The translations under genes and the position numbers were made by a program. The notes below the pieces were generated by a model. That model did no database searches. It saw nothing but the letters and a program-made list of their open reading frames with translations, and had not been told where the DNA came from. From Paludibacteraceae bacterium (GTDB lineage: Bacteria; Bacteroidota; Bacteroidia; Bacteroidales; Paludibacteraceae), in contig JAZNJW010000003.1 in NCBI GenBank assembly GCA_045578255.1, positions 8,282-72,281 on the forward strand: 64,000 nt of DNA, given 5' to 3'. Positions 37,447 through 57,967 of this stretch are shown here, in pieces; position 1 is the first letter of the stretch; each line of letters starts with the position of its first letter.

Positions 37447-38277
37447 TTACCAACGGCGACGAAATAATCCGCCAATCAAACAGATTAATATATAGAATGG
37501 ATATACTACCTCCAACAGCAACGCTGTACCGAAGCCAACCGACTTATCGCGTTTCTTAATCAAGTGATATTCAATCGGAAACTTCACAATCAAAGCCACA
37601 GGACATAACACCTGTATCACATTGGCTATCAATACGATTGCTCCGCAGCAGAGAATATCTTTGTCGGTGTATTTGGGTGCTTTACCAGCCCAACGCATGC
37701 GTTGATGGAAGAACGCAAGCCAAGTGGTTTGAGGGCGAACGAGGGCGGTCAATTCCTCGCTCTCACTCACCGCAATCTTCAGTCCCCGACGCTTGAAGGA
37801 CTCTAAGAGAAACATATCATCGCCACTCGGTATTTCGGGATGCAAGTCGGGATAGGACTCCAACCATCTATCGCGTTTGGCAATGAGGTTCGCCCCACTA
37901 CACAGCACAGCATGCCCACGTTTGGCTGTTTCTATGGTCAGTTGCTGAATGGCAGCATACTCTGCCATCTGCAACCGCTCCAGTAGCGACGGTTTCTCTC
38001 TCTCCGACTCCATCCGCAGTGGAAGGATGAGGAGATCGCTTTGCTGTAGATCGCTCGCGATGCTCACTGTAGATCGCTTTGCTGTAGATCGTTCGTGATG
38101 CTCACTGAAGACACTATTGCTGATGGGAGATGGGAGAATATCATCGTCCATCATCCAAATATACTCTGTTTGGGATTCAGAGATAAGGCGATAAAGGGCA
38201 TGTTTCTTGCCCTTCCCTTCGTCGTTGATTCCCCGTCGCGGGATGATGATTGATATGTTATTGCTATTAATATCCAA
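37447..38277 (-). CDS. Family-2 glycosyltransferase carrying an in-frame repeat insertion
   Basis: ISIIIP..., an acidic DDD motif, QRMRWAGK, and C-terminal TM helices. Confidence 0.7.
   Translation of the reverse strand: MDINSNNISIIIPRRGINDEGKGKKHALYRLISESQTEYIWMMDDDILPSPISNSVFSEHHERSTAKRSTVSIASDLQQSDLLILPLRMESEREKPSLLERLQMAEYAAIQQLTIETAKRGHAVLCSGANLIAKRDRWLESYPDLHPEIPSGDDMFLLESFKRRGLKIAVSESEELTALVRPQTTWLAFFHQRMRWAGKAPKYTDKDILCCGAIVLIANVIQVLCPVALIVKFPIEYHLIKKRDKSVGFGTALLLEVVYPFYILICLIGGLFRRRW
38034..38109. repeat. 38-bp unit x2 tandem repeat inside the GT2 CDS, followed by GATGGGA x2 at 38122-38135
   Basis: gatcgctttgctgtagatcgctcgcgatgctcactgta / gatcgctttgctgtagatcgttcgtgatgctcactgaa, with 3 mismatches. 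Encodes ..HHERSTAKRSTVSIASDLQQSD.. Confidence 0.9.
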
Positions 38278-38301
38278 AGTCGTCTAATCTATAGGAGATT
38301 G

Positions 38302-38309
38302 CAAAGGTA
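38302..38309 (-). promoter_or_regulatory. -7 box (minus strand) for the GT2 / trpB-like genes
   Basis: CAAAGGTA followed by a T-tract, about 25 nt upstream of the start at 38277. Confidence 0.55.
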
Positions 38310-38392
38310 GTACATTTTTTTGAGATATGCAACAATTATCCATAAATCTCGAATTTATTAAACTATTTCTTGCTCCATTCAAAATATTTCAT

Positions 38393-39520: not shown

Positions 39521-39564
39521 GCGGTTATTGTCCGGTTATTGTCCGGTTATTGTGCGGTTATTGT
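39521..39564. repeat. 11-bp tandem repeat (G/C)CGGTTATTGT x4 at the convergent LRR/aroA junction
   Basis: gcggttattgt ccggttattgt ccggttattgt gcggttattgt. The aroA stop and its last codons (..SHRTITAQ*) lie inside it. Confidence 0.9.
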
Positions 39565-40791
39565 GCGGTGCGAGCAGGGAGTTTGTGGAAATAGTTTATA
39601 GTATTCTTCCATAAATTGAGGATAGGATTTGCTGATGCAGGCGATGTCGTCCACTTCGTAGCCAGCAATCAACAATGCCATTGCCATGCGGTGGTCGTGG
39701 TCGGTGCGGTGTTCGCGTACAGCACGCAGGCGGTCGGATTCCTTCAGAGGCAAAGATTCTACGCCTGTGGCATGTAACTCTATGCCCAAACATTCACAGG
39801 TCAGAGCGACAGCAGGGTACAGGTCGGGGCAAGTTCCGAAATCCTGAATGAGGATTTTGGAACGGGACGCCGCTTGTGCGGCTATTGGACGCCCACCATG
39901 TGGGCTATTGGACGCTTCGCTATAGGCGATAGGCGAAAGGATGATGCCTTCGGCGGTGTAGGTAGTATGGACGCCGAGGTGGGCGAAGATGTCGGCAATG
40001 ATTTTGTCGCCTTGCAGCGAGTCGCGGAATAAGCCAGGGAGCGTAATCTCACCACCGTAAAGAGCCACATACTCGTACCAGAAGGCGGCAGAGGACCAGT
40101 CCTTTTCTAGTTCGTTCGCTATCCTCACTGTAGATCGCTGCGCTGTAGTTCGCTCGTTTTGCTCGCTGTAGTTCGCTCGTTTTACTCGCTGTAGATAGCT
40201 TTCTATTATCTCGCGGGTAAGAGTAATGTAAGGAGAAGTGCTATTGGTTTGGACGTTCGCGCCGATGAGGAGCAGGGCCGAAACGAACTGCGTAGATTGG
40301 GGATTGTTGAGAGTAACTATCCTATGCTTATCTAATATACATCCCTTAATGCGCAAAGGCGGGAAGCCCTCTTCGCCTAGATATTCTATATCAGCCCCTA
40401 TCTCATGCAAAGCATCTACTAACTGACCTATAGGACGGTGACGCATGCGTTCCACACCATTAAGAATAACTGTTTGTCCCTCTAGTTGAGCACAGTAGGC
40501 CGTGAGGAAGCGCATGGCGGTGCCACAATTGCCGAGTTCGATACTCGAACAGGACGCCGCTTGCGCGGCTATAGGACGCCCTGACGGGCTATAGGACGGC
40601 GTTTCGCCTATAGGACGCTCGCTCTGCGAGCTATTGGATGCATTGTTTAGTGTGGTTAAAGCGCGATGGAGAATCTGCACATCTTCGGGCAAAGTAGCGG
40701 AGACGGGCATAAGCTCGTCTCCGTGTATGGATTGCAAAATCAATAGGCGATTTGCAATGGATTTCGATATTGGCAGTTCAATCTGCATCAA
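39547..40791 (-). CDS. aroA: 3-phosphoshikimate 1-carboxyvinyltransferase (EPSP synthase) with three in-frame low-complexity insertions
   Basis: LPISKSIANRLLIL, GNCGTAMRFLTAYCA and DHRMAMALLIAG motifs. Confidence 0.9.
   Translation of the reverse strand: MMQIELPISKSIANRLLILQSIHGDELMPVSATLPEDVQILHRALTTLNNASNSSQSERPIGETPSYSPSGRPIAAQAASCSSIELGNCGTAMRFLTAYCAQLEGQTVILNGVERMRHRPIGQLVDALHEIGADIEYLGEEGFPPLRIKGCILDKHRIVTLNNPQSTQFVSALLLIGANVQTNSTSPYITLTREIIESYLQRVKRANYSEQNERTTAQRSTVRIANELEKDWSSAAFWYEYVALYGGEITLPGLFRDSLQGDKIIADIFAHLGVHTTYTAEGIILSPIAYSEASNSPHGGRPIAAQAASRSKILIQDFGTCPDLYPAVALTCECLGIELHATGVESLPLKESDRLRAVREHRTDHDHRMAMALLIAGYEVDDIACISKSYPQFMEEYYKLFPQTPCSHRTITAQ
39865..39940. repeat. In-frame repeat block in aroA (encodes ..SNSPHGGRPIAAQAASRS..)
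   Basis: ggacgccgcttgtgcggctattggacgcc, then gctattggacgc again, then ataggcg x2. Confidence 0.85.
40124..40199. repeat. In-frame repeat block in aroA (encodes ..NERTTAQRSTVRIANE..)
   Basis: The 16-nt core ctcactgtagatcgct is identical to the GT2 repeat. It is followed by the 23-bp unit gctgtagttcgctcgtttt(g/a)ctc x2. Confidence 0.85.
40552..40640. repeat. In-frame repeat block in aroA (encodes ..SERPIGETPSYSPSGRPIAAQAASCS..)
   Basis: ggacgccgcttgcgcggctataggacgcc has 27 of 29 nt identical to 39865-39893. It is followed by ctataggacg words x3. Confidence 0.85.
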
Positions 40792-47992: not shown

Positions 47993-48871
47993 TTAAATTC
48001 TCTCCAGTACGGTTTGTACGAGTTGTTTGATACGAGGTTTGTAGTCGGTATTCGCCGCTTCGACTTTGCGTTGAGCGATGACACAGCAGACGGTCATGGC
48101 CTTGTGTCCCATCAGCAAGCTGAGGCCTGCGATAGCACTACCCTCCATCTCGTAATTGGTGATGCGTTGTCCCTCATAACGGAAGTCAGTGATACGTTCG
48201 TTGATGTCCTTCACCGCCAAATCACAGCGCAACACACGGCCTTGAGGGCCATAGAAACCGTTGGCAGCGATAGTGCAACCACGCATCATGTCATCGCCTG
48301 CGATGCGATTGACCAGTTCGGGGTTAGCAGCCACTACATATGGGCGAGCCGCTTTGGCAGGATAGTGGATGAAGTCCACGAGTGTATCCTCAAAACCGAG
48401 GTCGGCAATCTCATCACGGCCTTCGTAGAAAGCCAAGACACCGTCCCAACCGATGGACTTCTCGCTCACGAGGAAAGTGCCAAGAGGGATGTCCTCTTGC
48501 ATGCCTCCGCACGTGCCGATGCGCACAATCTCAAGTGTGCGGTGCTCGTCTTTCTCGGTGCGAGTGGCGAAGTCGATGTTGGCGAGAGCGTCCAATTCGT
48601 TGAGCACAATATCGCAGTTGTCGGTACCGATACCCGTAGAGATACAAGAGATGCGTTTGCCGTGGTATTTACCTGTGATAGTATGGAACTCACGGCTTTG
48701 GATATCGCATTCAATGCTGCCTTCGTCAAAAAACGAAGCCACCATGTTGACGCGACCTTGGTCGCCGACCAATATCACCTTATCCGCCAGATGTTCGGGG
48801 CGAATGTGCAAATGGAATATGCTACCATCCTCATTGATAATGAGTTGGCTGGCAGGGAATGTCTTTTTCAT
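47993..48871 (-). CDS. Nucleoside phosphorylase (PNP/UDP family 1, uridine-phosphorylase-like)
   Basis: ADKVILVGDQGRV, ISTGIGTDN and EMEGSAIAG motifs. The 291-aa plus-strand ORF over the same DNA is a shadow. Confidence 0.85.
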   Translation of the reverse strand: MKKTFPASQLIINEDGSIFHLHIRPEHLADKVILVGDQGRVNMVASFFDEGSIECDIQSREFHTITGKYHGKRISCISTGIGTDNCDIVLNELDALANIDFATRTEKDEHRTLEIVRIGTCGGMQEDIPLGTFLVSEKSIGWDGVLAFYEGRDEIADLGFEDTLVDFIHYPAKAARPYVVAANPELVNRIAGDDMMRGCTIAANGFYGPQGRVLRCDLAVKDINERITDFRYEGQRITNYEMEGSAIAGLSLLMGHKAMTVCCVIAQRKVEAANTDYKPRIKQLVQTVLERI

Positions 48872-48885
48872 AGTAAAACGTTGTT

Positions 48886-49021
48886 TTAGACCGCTCGCGT
48901 TGCTCGCTGTTAGAAGTTAGACCACTGCGTTGTTAGAAGTTAGACTATGAAAATCTCTCAGCGCGAAGCGCGATCTAACAGCCGAAGGAGGTCTCTCTTC
49001 TCTCAGCCCGCAGGGCGGTCG
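48886..49021. repeat. Intergenic word-repeat block
   Basis: GTTAGAAGTTAGAC x2 (48909, 48932), CTCGCGTTGCTCGCTG, and TCTCAGCGCGAAGCGCGATC / TCTCAGCCCGCAGGGCGGTC. Confidence 0.8.
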
Positions 49022-49030
49022 GGTTAATGG

Positions 49031-49336
49031 TTAGGCTTGACCGCCGCCGAAGGACATAGGGATAGTACTTCCTGGGGCAGGAGTGCCATTGATTTTGATG
49101 GTACCAAATTGCTTTTCGTATTTAGCTACATTCTCTTGCAGCGCAAAAAGCAGTTTTTTGGTATTCTCTGGTGTCATGATGATGCGCGATTGCACGTTTG
49201 CGCTCTTCTGACCAGGCATCATGCGCACGAAATCTACTACAAACTCCGATGATGAGTGTGCTACGATAGCGAGGTTAGAATAATTACCTTCAGCCACTTC
49301 GGGCGAGAGGTTGATGTTGAGTTTTTGTTCTTCCAT
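49031..49336 (-). CDS. DUF3467-family protein
   Basis: NLSPEVAEGNYSNLAIVAHSSSEFVVDFVRMMPG matches my recollection of the DUF3467 family. Confidence 0.7.
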   Translation of the reverse strand: MEEQKLNINLSPEVAEGNYSNLAIVAHSSSEFVVDFVRMMPGQKSANVQSRIIMTPENTKKLLFALQENVAKYEKQFGTIKINGTPAPGSTIPMSFGGGQA

Positions 49337-57805: not shown

Positions 57806-57914
57806 GTGAAAAATTGTGAGATGGCAAAATAATTTGAGGTATATTTTTGTTTTTTAGTAGAAATATCGTAATTATATGATATATACGATGTTCCTACAGT
57901 ATACATATACTAAT

Positions 57915-57967
57915 CTACCGTATATCTACCGTGTATGTACCGTATATCTACCGTATATCTACCGTAG
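57915..57967. repeat. 11-bp tandem repeat CTACCGTATAT x5 (degenerate) upstream of grpE
   Basis: ctaccgtatat ctaccgtgtat gtaccgtatat ctaccgtatat ctaccgtag. Confidence 0.9.

What the first reader, a model, noticed from the sequence alone, without database searches (positions are those of the whole stretch)
38034..38137. 38-bp x2 tandem repeat translated inside a GT2 glycosyltransferase, sharing its core with the aroA insert
Seen: two 38-bp units with 3 mismatches are followed by GATGGGA x2. The segment encodes ..EHHERSTAKRSTVSIASDLQQSD.. directly after the acidic DDD motif. The peptide RSTV.IA and the DNA core ctcactgtagatcgct recur in aroA (..AQRSTVRIANE..). A 38-bp period is not a multiple of 3, so gain or loss of one unit would shift the frame. 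Inference: this is the same repeat family as in aroA, with potential on/off switching of a surface-glycan gene.
Basis: partly seen in the sequence, partly recalled or inferred. Interest (0 to 1): 0.62.

Follow-up and report, generated by a model that had tools for sequence, protein, structure and literature searches.

The report
Repeat-built swappable loop in a glycosyltransferase
The 38-base double repeat is real, but I found no evidence that it is an on/off switch: it is a translated cassette of a genome-wide short-repeat family filling one floppy loop of a conserved membrane glycosyltransferase, and related gut bacteria carry other, interchangeable repeat cassettes at the same loop.

Summary
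Observation confirmed. Two 38-nt units with 3 mismatches (38033-38108) and GATGGGA x2.3 lie in a 276-aa GT2 gene, 12 codons after DDD. The 16-nt core and the peptide RSTV.IA recur in aroA.

The phase-variation reading is not supported.
- No +/-38 allele appears in 8 DNA metagenomes or 4 RNA or probable-RNA runs.
- The -38 frameshift tail is absent from a 5.8-billion-cluster protein database.
- All 27 related protein clusters are in frame. Three lack exactly one 15-nt subunit.

Each 38-mer is 23+15 nt of a dispersed family (GATCTA(A)CAG...GC). The family also sits in frame in linkers of MutS2, RlmN, UvrA and RNase HI, and it builds intercistronic hairpins.

The loop is the only internal low-confidence part of an otherwise confident model (pLDDT 91.9). 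Across about 80 Paludibacteraceae genomes it is 12-45 aa long and falls into many unrelated types.

These types are nearly random on the backbone tree (27 changes against 30 in label shuffles). Monophyly of this type is rejected (p-AU 1.6e-44). Cassette DNA is far less diverged than its flanks (third positions 2/34 against 91/227).

Best reading: a tolerated repeat cassette exchanged between lineages. How it spreads is unresolved.

The parts
37447..38277 (-). GT2 glycosyltransferase gene, 276 aa. It has D..DDD..QRMRW motifs and C-terminal membrane helices, and lacks about the first 65 residues of a usual GT-A domain.
   Evidence: ORF. Pfam PF13641 matches profile positions 68-228 only. AlphaFold2 model has pLDDT 91.9. 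Best Foldseek matches are hyaluronan, chitin and cellulose synthases.
38140..38148 (-). Codons of the DDD (DxD-type) motif, residues 44-46.
   Evidence: Translation. D44 and D46 are invariant in alignments A1, A3 and A4.
38038..38139 (-). Hypervariable loop, residues 47-80 (ILPSPISNSVFSEHHERSTAKRSTVSIASDLQQS), between strand 39-43 and strand 82-84.
   Evidence: It is the only internal low-confidence stretch of the model: 10-residue block means 67, 55 and 80 against 94-98 elsewhere. Relatives have 12-45 aa of unrelated sequence here.
38033..38070 (+). 38-nt unit A: AGATCGCTTTGCTGTAGATCGCTCGCGATGCTCACTGT.
38071..38108 (+). 38-nt unit B, with 3 mismatches to unit A.
38038..38052 (-). 15-nt sub-unit u3 (coding sense GATCTACAGCAAAGC, read DLQQS). 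It abuts the native GAT CTC (D-L) codons, which repeat its first 5 bases.
   Evidence: Codon-level reading of the alleles.
38053..38075 (-). 23-nt sub-unit u2 (coding sense GATCTACAGTGAGCATCGCGAGC, read (R)STVSIAS). It carries the 16-nt core shared with aroA.
38076..38090 (-). 15-nt sub-unit u1 (GATCTACAGCAAAGC, read (R)STAK). It is the unit missing from the 29-aa alleles.
   Evidence: DNA alignment of WIN, L005, L089 and L088 against L086 and L087.
38091..38113 (-). Degenerate 23-nt unit (coding sense TGTCTTCAGTGAGCATCACGAAC), the oldest-looking copy.
38122..38137 (+). GATGGGA x2.3, which encodes LPSPI. This part is the remnant of the native P-x-P start of the loop (compare IVPP and LPAP in relatives), not the dispersed family.
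39547..40791 (-). aroA (EPSP synthase, 414 aa), host of a related in-frame array.
   Evidence: Pfam PF00275 and TIGR01356. It is the only PF00275 locus found in the genome.
40108..40200 (-). aroA array of the same family (23+23+15+23 nt), in the same orientation as the GT2 array. It encodes ..RANYSEQNERTTAQRSTVRIANEL...
   Evidence: 81% identity over 64 nt to the GT2 array (family D5). TRF finds 23 nt x2.3. An array of the family occurs in or near the aroA part of many relatives' loci, whatever their GT2 loop type.
48872..49030 (-). Intercistronic copy of the family. It is a 159-nt imperfect long hairpin between two co-directional genes, one arm (CTGTTAGAYC..)n and the other its inverse with GC-stem/GNA-loop mini-hairpins.
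   Evidence: At the orthologous site it is present only in G000 and G008 among same-genus genomes.

Best explanation
The segment is a translated, selectively tolerated repeat cassette. It fills the one disordered, insertion-tolerant loop of a conserved membrane GT2 enzyme.

It is built of 15-nt and 23-nt units of a short-repeat family (coding sense GATCTA(A)CAG + short GC-rich spacer + GC) that is dispersed through this Paludibacteraceae genome. Its largest copies are intercistronic long hairpins. Single-arm arrays sit in frame in loops and linkers of several housekeeping proteins.

Shown:
- the family membership;
- the loop location;
- the existence of many alternative loop cassettes in relatives;
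- their near-random distribution over the gene's own phylogeny;
- their low DNA divergence compared with the flanks;
- in-frame loss of one 15-nt unit in some alleles;
- absence of any 38-nt copy-number variant.

Inferred:
- The array arose by local slippage or templated copying, seeded on the native GATCT (Asp-Leu) codons.
- Only in-frame, stop-free configurations survive selection, because the enzyme is needed.
- Cassettes then pass between lineages as alleles, by homologous recombination through the strongly conserved flanks.
- The cassette peptide itself has no required function.

It is therefore an RPE-like in-frame repeat passenger, not a contingency switch.
For: Family membership.
- Core match to aroA: 5 hits against 0.37 expected.
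- Related arrays lie at about 15 loci.
- Four further in-frame hosts were checked by Pfam: the MutS2 linker, RlmN between its domains, UvrA just after UvrA_inter, and the RNase H1 linker, which reads NATAKRSTVSSASDLQALCADLQRSDL.

Loop tolerance.
- AF2 mean pLDDT is 91.9 and pTM 0.89. The only internal dip is at about residues 51-75.
- pN/pS is 0.3-0.9 in the loop against 0.06-0.2 in the rest of the gene.

Alternative cassettes.
- Loops are 12-45 aa and of many unrelated types in 80 species-level genomes.
- Several are visibly made of other repeat families of this genome. For example, the CERPIGG type matches the 21-nt tandem-repeat consensus TCCAATAGCCTCACCGAGGCG at C4:49501.
- The same GATCTAACAG family occupies the loop in both orientations in other species (L044, L011, L070, L076).

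Exchange between lineages.
- Loop types need 27 changes on the loop-free tree, against a mean of 30 (range 25-34) for shuffled labels.
- The 6 alleles of this type need 6 changes, and the AU test rejects their monophyly at p 1.6e-44.
- Allele L088 joins the left part of another loop type to this cassette.
- Third-position differences are 2/34 in the loop against 91/227 elsewhere (p 3e-5). The dip is confined to the cassette. The same holds for five other loop types.

Frame selection.
- 24 clusters have 34 aa and 3 have 29 aa. The difference is loss of exactly one 15-nt unit between 9-nt GATCTACAG repeats.
- No +/-38 form exists in 8 DNA metagenomes.
- RNA-run contigs carry the cassette ungapped.
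- The -38 frameshift tail is absent from the protein database.
Against: - Logan contigs drop rare variants, so OFF variants below a few per cent of a population cannot be excluded.
- The cassette is much better conserved at silent sites than its immediate 30-nt flanks. Plain allelic recombination explains this only if recombination is about as frequent as mutation per site. DNA-level constraint, or repeated re-copying from other family members, would explain it equally well.
- Grouping alleles by loop type biases the loop divergence downwards.
- No mobilising enzyme was identified: no RAYT.
- No target-site duplication is visible.
- The CDS copy has no hairpin (z -0.42 and +0.90).
- All sequences are metagenome assemblies. 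No isolate is available.
Confidence: 0.7

Rival explanations
1. Contingency locus. Slipped-strand gain or loss of one 38-nt unit reversibly switches the glycosyltransferase off and on.
For: - The unit length is not a multiple of 3, and +/-1 unit truncates the protein at 113 or 83 aa.
- The units share a perfect 21-nt head.
- Slippage does happen here: 15-nt loss alleles exist.
Against: - There are only 2.1 copies at 92% identity.
- No indel and no +/-38 joint appears in 8 DNA and 4 RNA or probable-RNA runs, although ungapped contigs span the array in most of them.
- 27 of 27 clusters are in frame.
- The -38 tail is absent from 5.8 billion protein clusters.
- The two-unit architecture is unchanged between alleles whose flanks differ at 30-50% of silent (third-codon) sites.
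- After a deletion, re-duplication of a lost unit would be rare, so a switch would not be reversible.
Confidence: 0.05
2. Active copying rather than allelic exchange. Cassettes are written into permissive sites from dispersed master copies, by short-patch gene conversion, template switching or an unidentified element-encoded activity. This keeps them close to the family consensus in every lineage.
For: - The cassette-limited dip in divergence has no residual linkage in the adjacent 30-nt bins.
- The same family occupies the same loop in both orientations in distant species.
- The last unit merges with the native GATCT codons, a microhomology.
- A donor array of the same family lies in aroA, 2 kb away on the same strand, and is widespread in relatives.
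- At an orthologous intergenic site, 97-99%-identical neighbours carry wholly different repeat fillers.
Against: - The identical, idiosyncratic architecture (degenerate 23' + 15 + 23 + 15, same left junction) in alleles on different backbones points to one origin followed by transfer, not repeated writing.
- No RAYT.
- No TSD.
- The GT2 and aroA arrays are only 81% alike.
- No within-genome concerted pattern could be shown.
Confidence: 0.17
3. The loop is a functional, diversifying surface of the enzyme, for example to escape an inhibitor or to tune a partner interaction. The discrete cassette types are then kept by balancing selection.
For: - A handful of discrete types is shared across many species, each young relative to its backbone.
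- The loop follows the catalytic DxD.
- The gene is fused to the aroA-like domain in relatives, so partner contacts exist.
Against: - The same repeat families sit in linkers of unrelated cytoplasmic enzymes and in intergenic spacers, which points to a mutational process.
- pN/pS in the loop is relaxed but not above 1.
- Model confidence in the loop is low.
- Basal lineages manage with 12 aa.
Confidence: 0.08

Closest known systems
Rickettsia palindromic elements (RPEs): selfish repeats inserted in frame in unrelated genes (Ogata et al. 2000, as summarised in PMC10969869)
   Same: - A dispersed repeat family is read through as protein in several unrelated housekeeping genes.
- Insertions sit at positions compatible with the fold (loops and linkers).
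- A conserved peptide recurs (RSTV.IA, DLQQSD).
   Different: - The CDS copies here are short direct-repeat arrays (15/23-nt units, about 76 nt) with no palindrome. RPEs are elements of about 150 bp.
- The host is free-living gut Bacteroidota, not an obligate intracellular alphaproteobacterium.
- The same loop holds many alternative cassettes that are shuffled between lineages.
- There is no sequence relation to RPEs.
BrickBuilt minisatellite MITE of Porphyromonas gingivalis (Klein et al. 2015, PMC4596501)
   Same: - It is found in the order Bacteroidales.
- It has an imperfect 23-nt tandem unit without spacers.
- It has about 19 copies per genome.
- Copy number varies between loci.
- It has small inverted-repeat ends.
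   Different: - BrickBuilt is always intergenic, 49-591 nt from coding sequences, and has leader and tail modules. Here arrays are translated inside genes.
- Units of 15/16 nt are mixed with the 23/24-nt units.
- The intergenic form is a long hairpin abutting the stop and start codons.
- Sequence relation was not tested, because the paper's text gives no consensus.
Simple-sequence contingency loci in glycosyltransferase genes (slipped-strand phase variation, as in Haemophilus, Neisseria and Campylobacter; from general knowledge)
   Same: A tandem repeat whose unit is not a multiple of three lies in the 5' third of a glycosyltransferase gene.
   Different: - There are two imperfect 38-nt copies, not many perfect 1-8-nt units.
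- No copy-number polymorphism was found.
- The frame is conserved in all alleles.
REP/BIME/REPIN elements mobilised by RAYT transposases
   Same: - The intergenic copies are arrays of short units with small GC hairpins.
- They are arranged as inverted halves that fold into a long hairpin.
- They lie between co-directional genes.
   Different: - No RAYT (PF01797) is present in a 98.9%-complete genome.
- There are tens of copies, not hundreds.
- Copies occur inside genes.

Membership tests
Slipped-strand contingency (phase-variation) locus | Tandem repeat in the coding region or promoter whose unit length is not a multiple of 3 | tested here: met
   The period is 38 nt, inside the CDS. A change of +/-1 unit gives stops after 113 or 83 aa.
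Slipped-strand contingency (phase-variation) locus | Long, near-perfect tract that gives a high slippage rate | tested here: not met
   There are 2.1 copies at 92% identity, and the longest perfect shared run is 21 nt.
Slipped-strand contingency (phase-variation) locus | Copy-number polymorphism of the frame-shifting unit within or between populations | tested here: not met
   No indels and no +/-38 joints in 8 DNA metagenomes and 4 RNA or probable-RNA runs. 27 of 27 protein clusters are in frame. The -38 tail is not in the protein database. Limit: contigs hide variants below a few per cent.
RPE-like in-frame selfish repeat | Dispersed repeat family present at many loci of the genome | tested here: met
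   About 15 loci carry two or more related units.
RPE-like in-frame selfish repeat | Inserted in frame in unrelated protein-coding genes, at positions compatible with the fold | tested here: met
   Hosts are GT2, aroA, MutS2, RlmN, UvrA and RNase H1. All copies lie between Pfam domains or in the low-pLDDT loop.
RPE-like in-frame selfish repeat | Palindromic element of about 100-150 nt able to form a stable hairpin | tested here: not met
   The GT2 copy folds no better than shuffles (z -0.42 as RNA, +0.90 as DNA). Only the intercistronic copies are long hairpins.
REP/REPIN-RAYT system | Cognate RAYT (Y1 transposase) gene in the genome | tested here: not met
   PF01797 gives 0 matches in G000, which is 98.9% complete. 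The control genomes ring.
REP/REPIN-RAYT system | Short extragenic imperfect palindromes arranged as inverted pairs | tested here: met
   Six intercistronic copies align and fold as long hairpins. Their units carry GC stems with GNA loops, and the stem sequences differ between units.
MITE (for example BrickBuilt) | Terminal inverted repeats plus target-site duplication | tested here: inconclusive
   The ends are inverted (TTAGAYCGC ... GCGGTCTTA), but this is trivial in a palindrome. No TSD is seen when filled and unfilled orthologous sites are compared, and the filler is replaced rather than inserted.
GT2 (GT-A fold) membrane glycosyltransferase | DxD motif, Q(Q/R)xRW motif, GT-A core and membrane helices | tested here: met
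   DDD at 44-46 and QRMRW at 192-196 are invariant or nearly so. Pfam PF13641 matches. Foldseek TM 0.6-0.67 to hyaluronan synthases. The first about 65 residues of the usual domain are absent.

The most novel reading that the evidence does not exclude
In this genus of gut Paludibacteraceae a so far undescribed process writes or swaps short tandem-repeat cassettes into every permissive site. These sites include protein loops, inter-domain linkers and intercistronic spacers.

The process works largely independently of flanking homology, for example by templated copying from dispersed master arrays. As a result, neighbours with 97-99% identical genes carry wholly different fillers, and each cassette stays close to a family consensus across species.
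Probability: 0.2. Interest if true: 0.8.

Novelty: new variant of a known kind. Interest (0 to 1): 0.5.

Why it matters
- It removes a false lead. A repeat whose unit breaks the frame, sitting in a glycosyltransferase, is not by itself a phase-variation switch.
- It documents a rare situation in free-living bacteria. Short-repeat DNA is read through as protein in several core enzymes, and one loop behaves like a multi-allelic cassette site shared across species.
- If the turnover is driven by a dedicated copying process, this would be a new source of protein length variation and of intergenic diversity in gut Bacteroidota.
- The loop would also be a ready-made permissive site for protein engineering.
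- These cassette sites are sharp strain markers for ruminant-gut metagenomics.

Tried and rejected
- **Hairpin or RNA element in the GT2 cassette.** RNA and DNA folds are no better than shuffles, and Rfam finds only tRNAs in the window. Rejected.
- **RAYT-driven REP system.** No PF01797 in the genome. Rejected as the mobiliser.
- **AlphaFold2 with the shallow alignment A1.** It gave pLDDT 46 and was unusable. It was repeated with 107 diverse homologues.
- **NCBIfam naming of the GT2.** Only a sub-threshold HpsE hit. No specific function could be assigned.
- **Hairpin-unit regex.** Counts in the real genome are barely above a shuffle (38 against 29). Only 12 units have stems of 3 bp or more, so the family is small, not a proliferating element.
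- **Single-unit pattern counts.** 77 hits against 54-60 in shuffles, which is uninformative. Only clustered units are meaningful.
- **Literature.** No paper links Paludibacteraceae with tandem repeats.
- **Assembly chimerism as the cause of the loop/backbone decoupling.** Judged unlikely. This is a judgement, not a test. The conserved flanks next to the loop are only about 17-20 nt long, and the same alleles recur on many independent long contigs.
- **Raw-read data for rare variants.** Every run offered is kept only as contigs.

Full report
**1.
Tandem Repeats Finder gives a 38-nt period at 38033-38111 (2.1 copies, 92% matches, score 137) and GATGGGA x2.3 at 38122-38137. The two units differ at three positions. 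A shuffled copy of the whole 2.25-Mb genome gives no tandem repeat scoring above 62.

The array lies in the minus-strand ORF 37447-38277. This is a 276-aa protein matching Pfam Glyco_tranf_2_3. The repeat-encoded residues (..SEHHERSTAKRSTVSIASDLQQSD..) begin 12 residues after the DDD motif.

The 16-nt core CTCACTGTAGATCGCT recurs exactly inside aroA at 40124. With up to 3 mismatches there are 5 hits in the window against 0.37 expected. The arrays in the two genes are 81% identical over 64 nt, lie on the same strand, and give the shared peptide RSTV.IA.

**2. Anatomy.**
Read on the coding strand, the array is [TGTCTTCAGTGAGCATCACGAAC][GATCTACAGCAAAGC][GATCTACAGTGAGCATCGCGAGC][GATCTACAGCAAAGC]GATCTC. 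That is (23+15) x2. The last unit runs into the native Asp-Leu codons (GAT CTC), which repeat its first five bases.
- The 15-nt units keep the frame.
- The 23-nt units shift it, so the same DNA word is read as STAK, STVSIAS and DLQQS.
- In this orientation the word GCGATCTACAG has no stop in any frame. The opposite orientation has a TAG in one frame.
- GATGGGA x2 encodes LPSPI. It belongs to the older P-x-P start of the loop (LPAP and IVPP in relatives), not to the family.
- The array has no secondary structure beyond chance, as RNA or as DNA. Rfam finds nothing here.

**3. The organism and the gene.**
The closest relatives are metagenome-assembled Paludibacteraceae (Bacteroidales) from the guts of deer, sheep, buffalo and yak. 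The runs that hold the sequence are gut metagenomes.

With a 107-sequence alignment, AlphaFold2 gives a confident model: mean pLDDT 91.9 and pTM 0.89. Besides the first four residues, the only weak part is residues about 51-75, which is the cassette. The best structural matches are hyaluronan, chitin and cellulose synthases, TM 0.6-0.67. The protein keeps D..DDD..QRMRW but lacks about the first 65 residues of a usual GT-A domain. Its substrate is unknown, so 'surface glycan' is unproven.

In relatives at 55-70% identity the same GT2 is the C-terminal half of proteins of about 600 aa. Their N-terminal half is the aroA-like EPSP-synthase domain. The two repeat-bearing genes of the finding are therefore functionally linked.

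**4. The family is genome-wide and sits in other core genes.**
Arrays of related units (GCGATCTA(A)CAG.., 15/16/23/24 nt) occur at about 15 loci. Four more are in frame in genes confirmed by Pfam:
- MutS2, between MutS_V and Smr;
- RlmN, between RlmN_N and the radical-SAM domain;
- UvrA, just after UvrA_inter;
- RNase H1, in the linker after the Cauli_VI domain, with NATAKRSTVSSASDLQALCADLQRSDL, nearly the GT2 peptide.

All are loops or linkers.

The intergenic copies are different. Six of them align as elements of 130-170 nt that lie between the stop of one gene and the start of the next co-directional gene. One half is (CTGTTAGAYCGCTTCG)n. The other half is its inverse, with units TCTAACAG + GC stem + GNA loop + GGTC. 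Each whole element folds into a long hairpin. The copy in this window is at 48872-49030. The genome has no RAYT transposase.

**5. The loop is a multi-allelic cassette site.**
The protein is otherwise about 95% conserved among close relatives. The stretch between DDD and DL(L/I)IL is replaced wholesale. In 80 species-level genomes it is 12-45 aa.
- Basal lineages have 12-20 aa (IVPPVATPETDA; VILHSLEDALSGYSLEVKGM).
- In the clade of the window there are at least seven discrete types.
- Several are visibly made of other repeat families of this genome. The CERPIGG type matches a 21-nt tandem repeat at C4:49501. The LEVKGERLEVKG type is the 7-nt TTAGAGG/TTAAAGG family.
- In other species the same GATCTAACAG family occupies the loop in either orientation (L044, L011, L070, L076).

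**6. Cassettes are decoupled from the gene's history.**
On a maximum-likelihood tree of the protein without the loop, loop types need 27 changes among 46 rows. Shuffled labels need 30 on average (range 25-34). The six alleles with the window's cassette need six changes, and the AU test rejects their monophyly (p 1.6e-44). One allele (L088) joins the left part of the CERPIGG type to this cassette.

The cassette DNA is much less diverged than the gene around it.
- Between the window and L089, third codon positions differ at 2/34 in the loop against 91/227 elsewhere (p 3e-5).
- The dip is confined to the cassette. The adjacent 30-nt bins are at the gene-wide level.
- The same contrast holds for five other loop types: 0.03-0.20 against 0.33-0.45.
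- Grouping by loop type biases this comparison, so it restates the decoupling rather than proving it independently.
- pN/pS is 0.3-0.9 in the loop against 0.06-0.2 elsewhere. The DNA conservation is therefore not protein-level constraint.

The simplest reading is that each cassette is a young allele class that has spread across diverged backbones by homologous recombination through the conserved flanks. The gene is otherwise mosaic: the last 120 nt of WIN and L005 are almost identical. Re-copying from other family members, or DNA-level constraint, cannot be excluded.

**7. The switch hypothesis.**
Gain or loss of one 38-nt unit would indeed truncate the enzyme after 83 or 113 aa. The evidence is against such switching in nature.
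- The two-unit form is found ungapped in contigs of independent gut metagenomes from several studies.
- No indel and no +/-38 joint is seen in 8 DNA runs or in 4 RNA or probable-RNA runs. The only joints are whole-loop replacements from other strains.
- Of the 120 best database clusters, 27 carry this cassette. Of these, 24 have 34 aa and 3 have 29 aa.
- The 29-aa alleles lack exactly one 15-nt unit. This is a slippage between 9-nt GATCTACAG repeats.
- Slippage therefore occurs, but only in-frame products persist.
- The tail that a -38 allele would encode is absent from 5.8 billion protein clusters.

Limits: contigs hide rare variants, and no raw-read run was available.

**8. Wider setting.**
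The genome holds 796 tandem repeats of period 7 or more, against 36 in a shuffle. Period 11 is the commonest.

At the site orthologous to the hairpin element at 48872-49030, same-genus genomes whose flanking proteins are 97-99% identical carry entirely different fillers. Each filler is a different short tandem repeat. The hairpin element is present only in G000 and G008.

Repeat-built fillers thus turn over much faster than point substitutions throughout the genus. The GT2 loop is one instance of this.

I checked only that arrays of the family occur in or near the aroA part of many relatives' loci, independently of the GT2 loop type.

**9. Comparison and verdict.**
- It works most like Rickettsia palindromic elements (PMC10969869): dispersed repeats read through as protein at fold-compatible positions. 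It fails their palindrome criterion and is unrelated in sequence.
- It resembles the 23-nt BrickBuilt minisatellite of Porphyromonas gingivalis (PMC4596501), which however is always intergenic.
- It is not a contingency locus, and not a RAYT/REP system.

I file it as a new variant of a known kind. The family link is confirmed and widened. The switching idea is not supported.

Noticed in passing
window 37447-38277 and 39547-40791; proteins P0121, P0122, P0124, P0126, P0128, P0129: In relatives at 55-70% identity, the aroA-like EPSP-synthase domain and this truncated GT2 are fused into one protein of about 600 aa. In the window they are separated by a BspA-type LRR gene on the other strand. This suggests that the two enzymes work together.
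   Followed up: partly
window 48872-49030: A 159-nt imperfect long hairpin of the same repeat family fills the whole gap between the stop of ORF 49031-49336 and the start of ORF 47993-48871, both on the minus strand. Five similar intercistronic copies lie elsewhere in the genome.
   Followed up: partly
loci L096-L114 (site orthologous to window 48872-49030 in same-genus genomes): Genomes whose flanking proteins are 97-99% identical have completely different intergenic fillers here. Each filler is a different short tandem repeat (CTTTAAA, TTTCTAAA, TTAAACAACA, TGTACGA, ATTTGAAG ...). Repeat-built spacers turn over far faster than point mutations.
   Followed up: partly
whole genome G000; in the window for example 39522-39569 and 57913-57966: There are 796 tandem repeats of period 7 or more against 36 in a shuffled genome. 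Period 11 is the commonest (152). Several unrelated 11-nt arrays have the same 54-nt length (4.9 copies).
   Followed up: partly
G000 C6:50885-53287, C22:240675-241796, C12:111758-114559, C17:144211-144945: MutS2, RlmN, UvrA and RNase H1 each carry an in-frame array of the same family in an inter-domain linker.
   Followed up: yes
window 37447-37570 against L005: The last 120 nt or so of the GT2 gene are almost identical between the window and L005, while the rest differs by about 12%. This is a recent recombination tract, so the gene is mosaic.
   Followed up: no
window 38299-38313 and about 7 other sites (repeat families D3 and D6): The commonest 11-mers of the genome (GTACCTTTGCA and relatives) are the Bacteroidetes TAnnTTTG promoter box with its conserved surroundings, not mobile repeats. 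One sits 25-35 nt upstream of the GT2 start on the minus strand.
   Followed up: no
genome G000: A whole-genome search with PF00275 (EPSP_synthase, which also covers MurA) found only the aroA locus of this window and no MurA. This may be a miss of the tool's loose first look.
   Followed up: no
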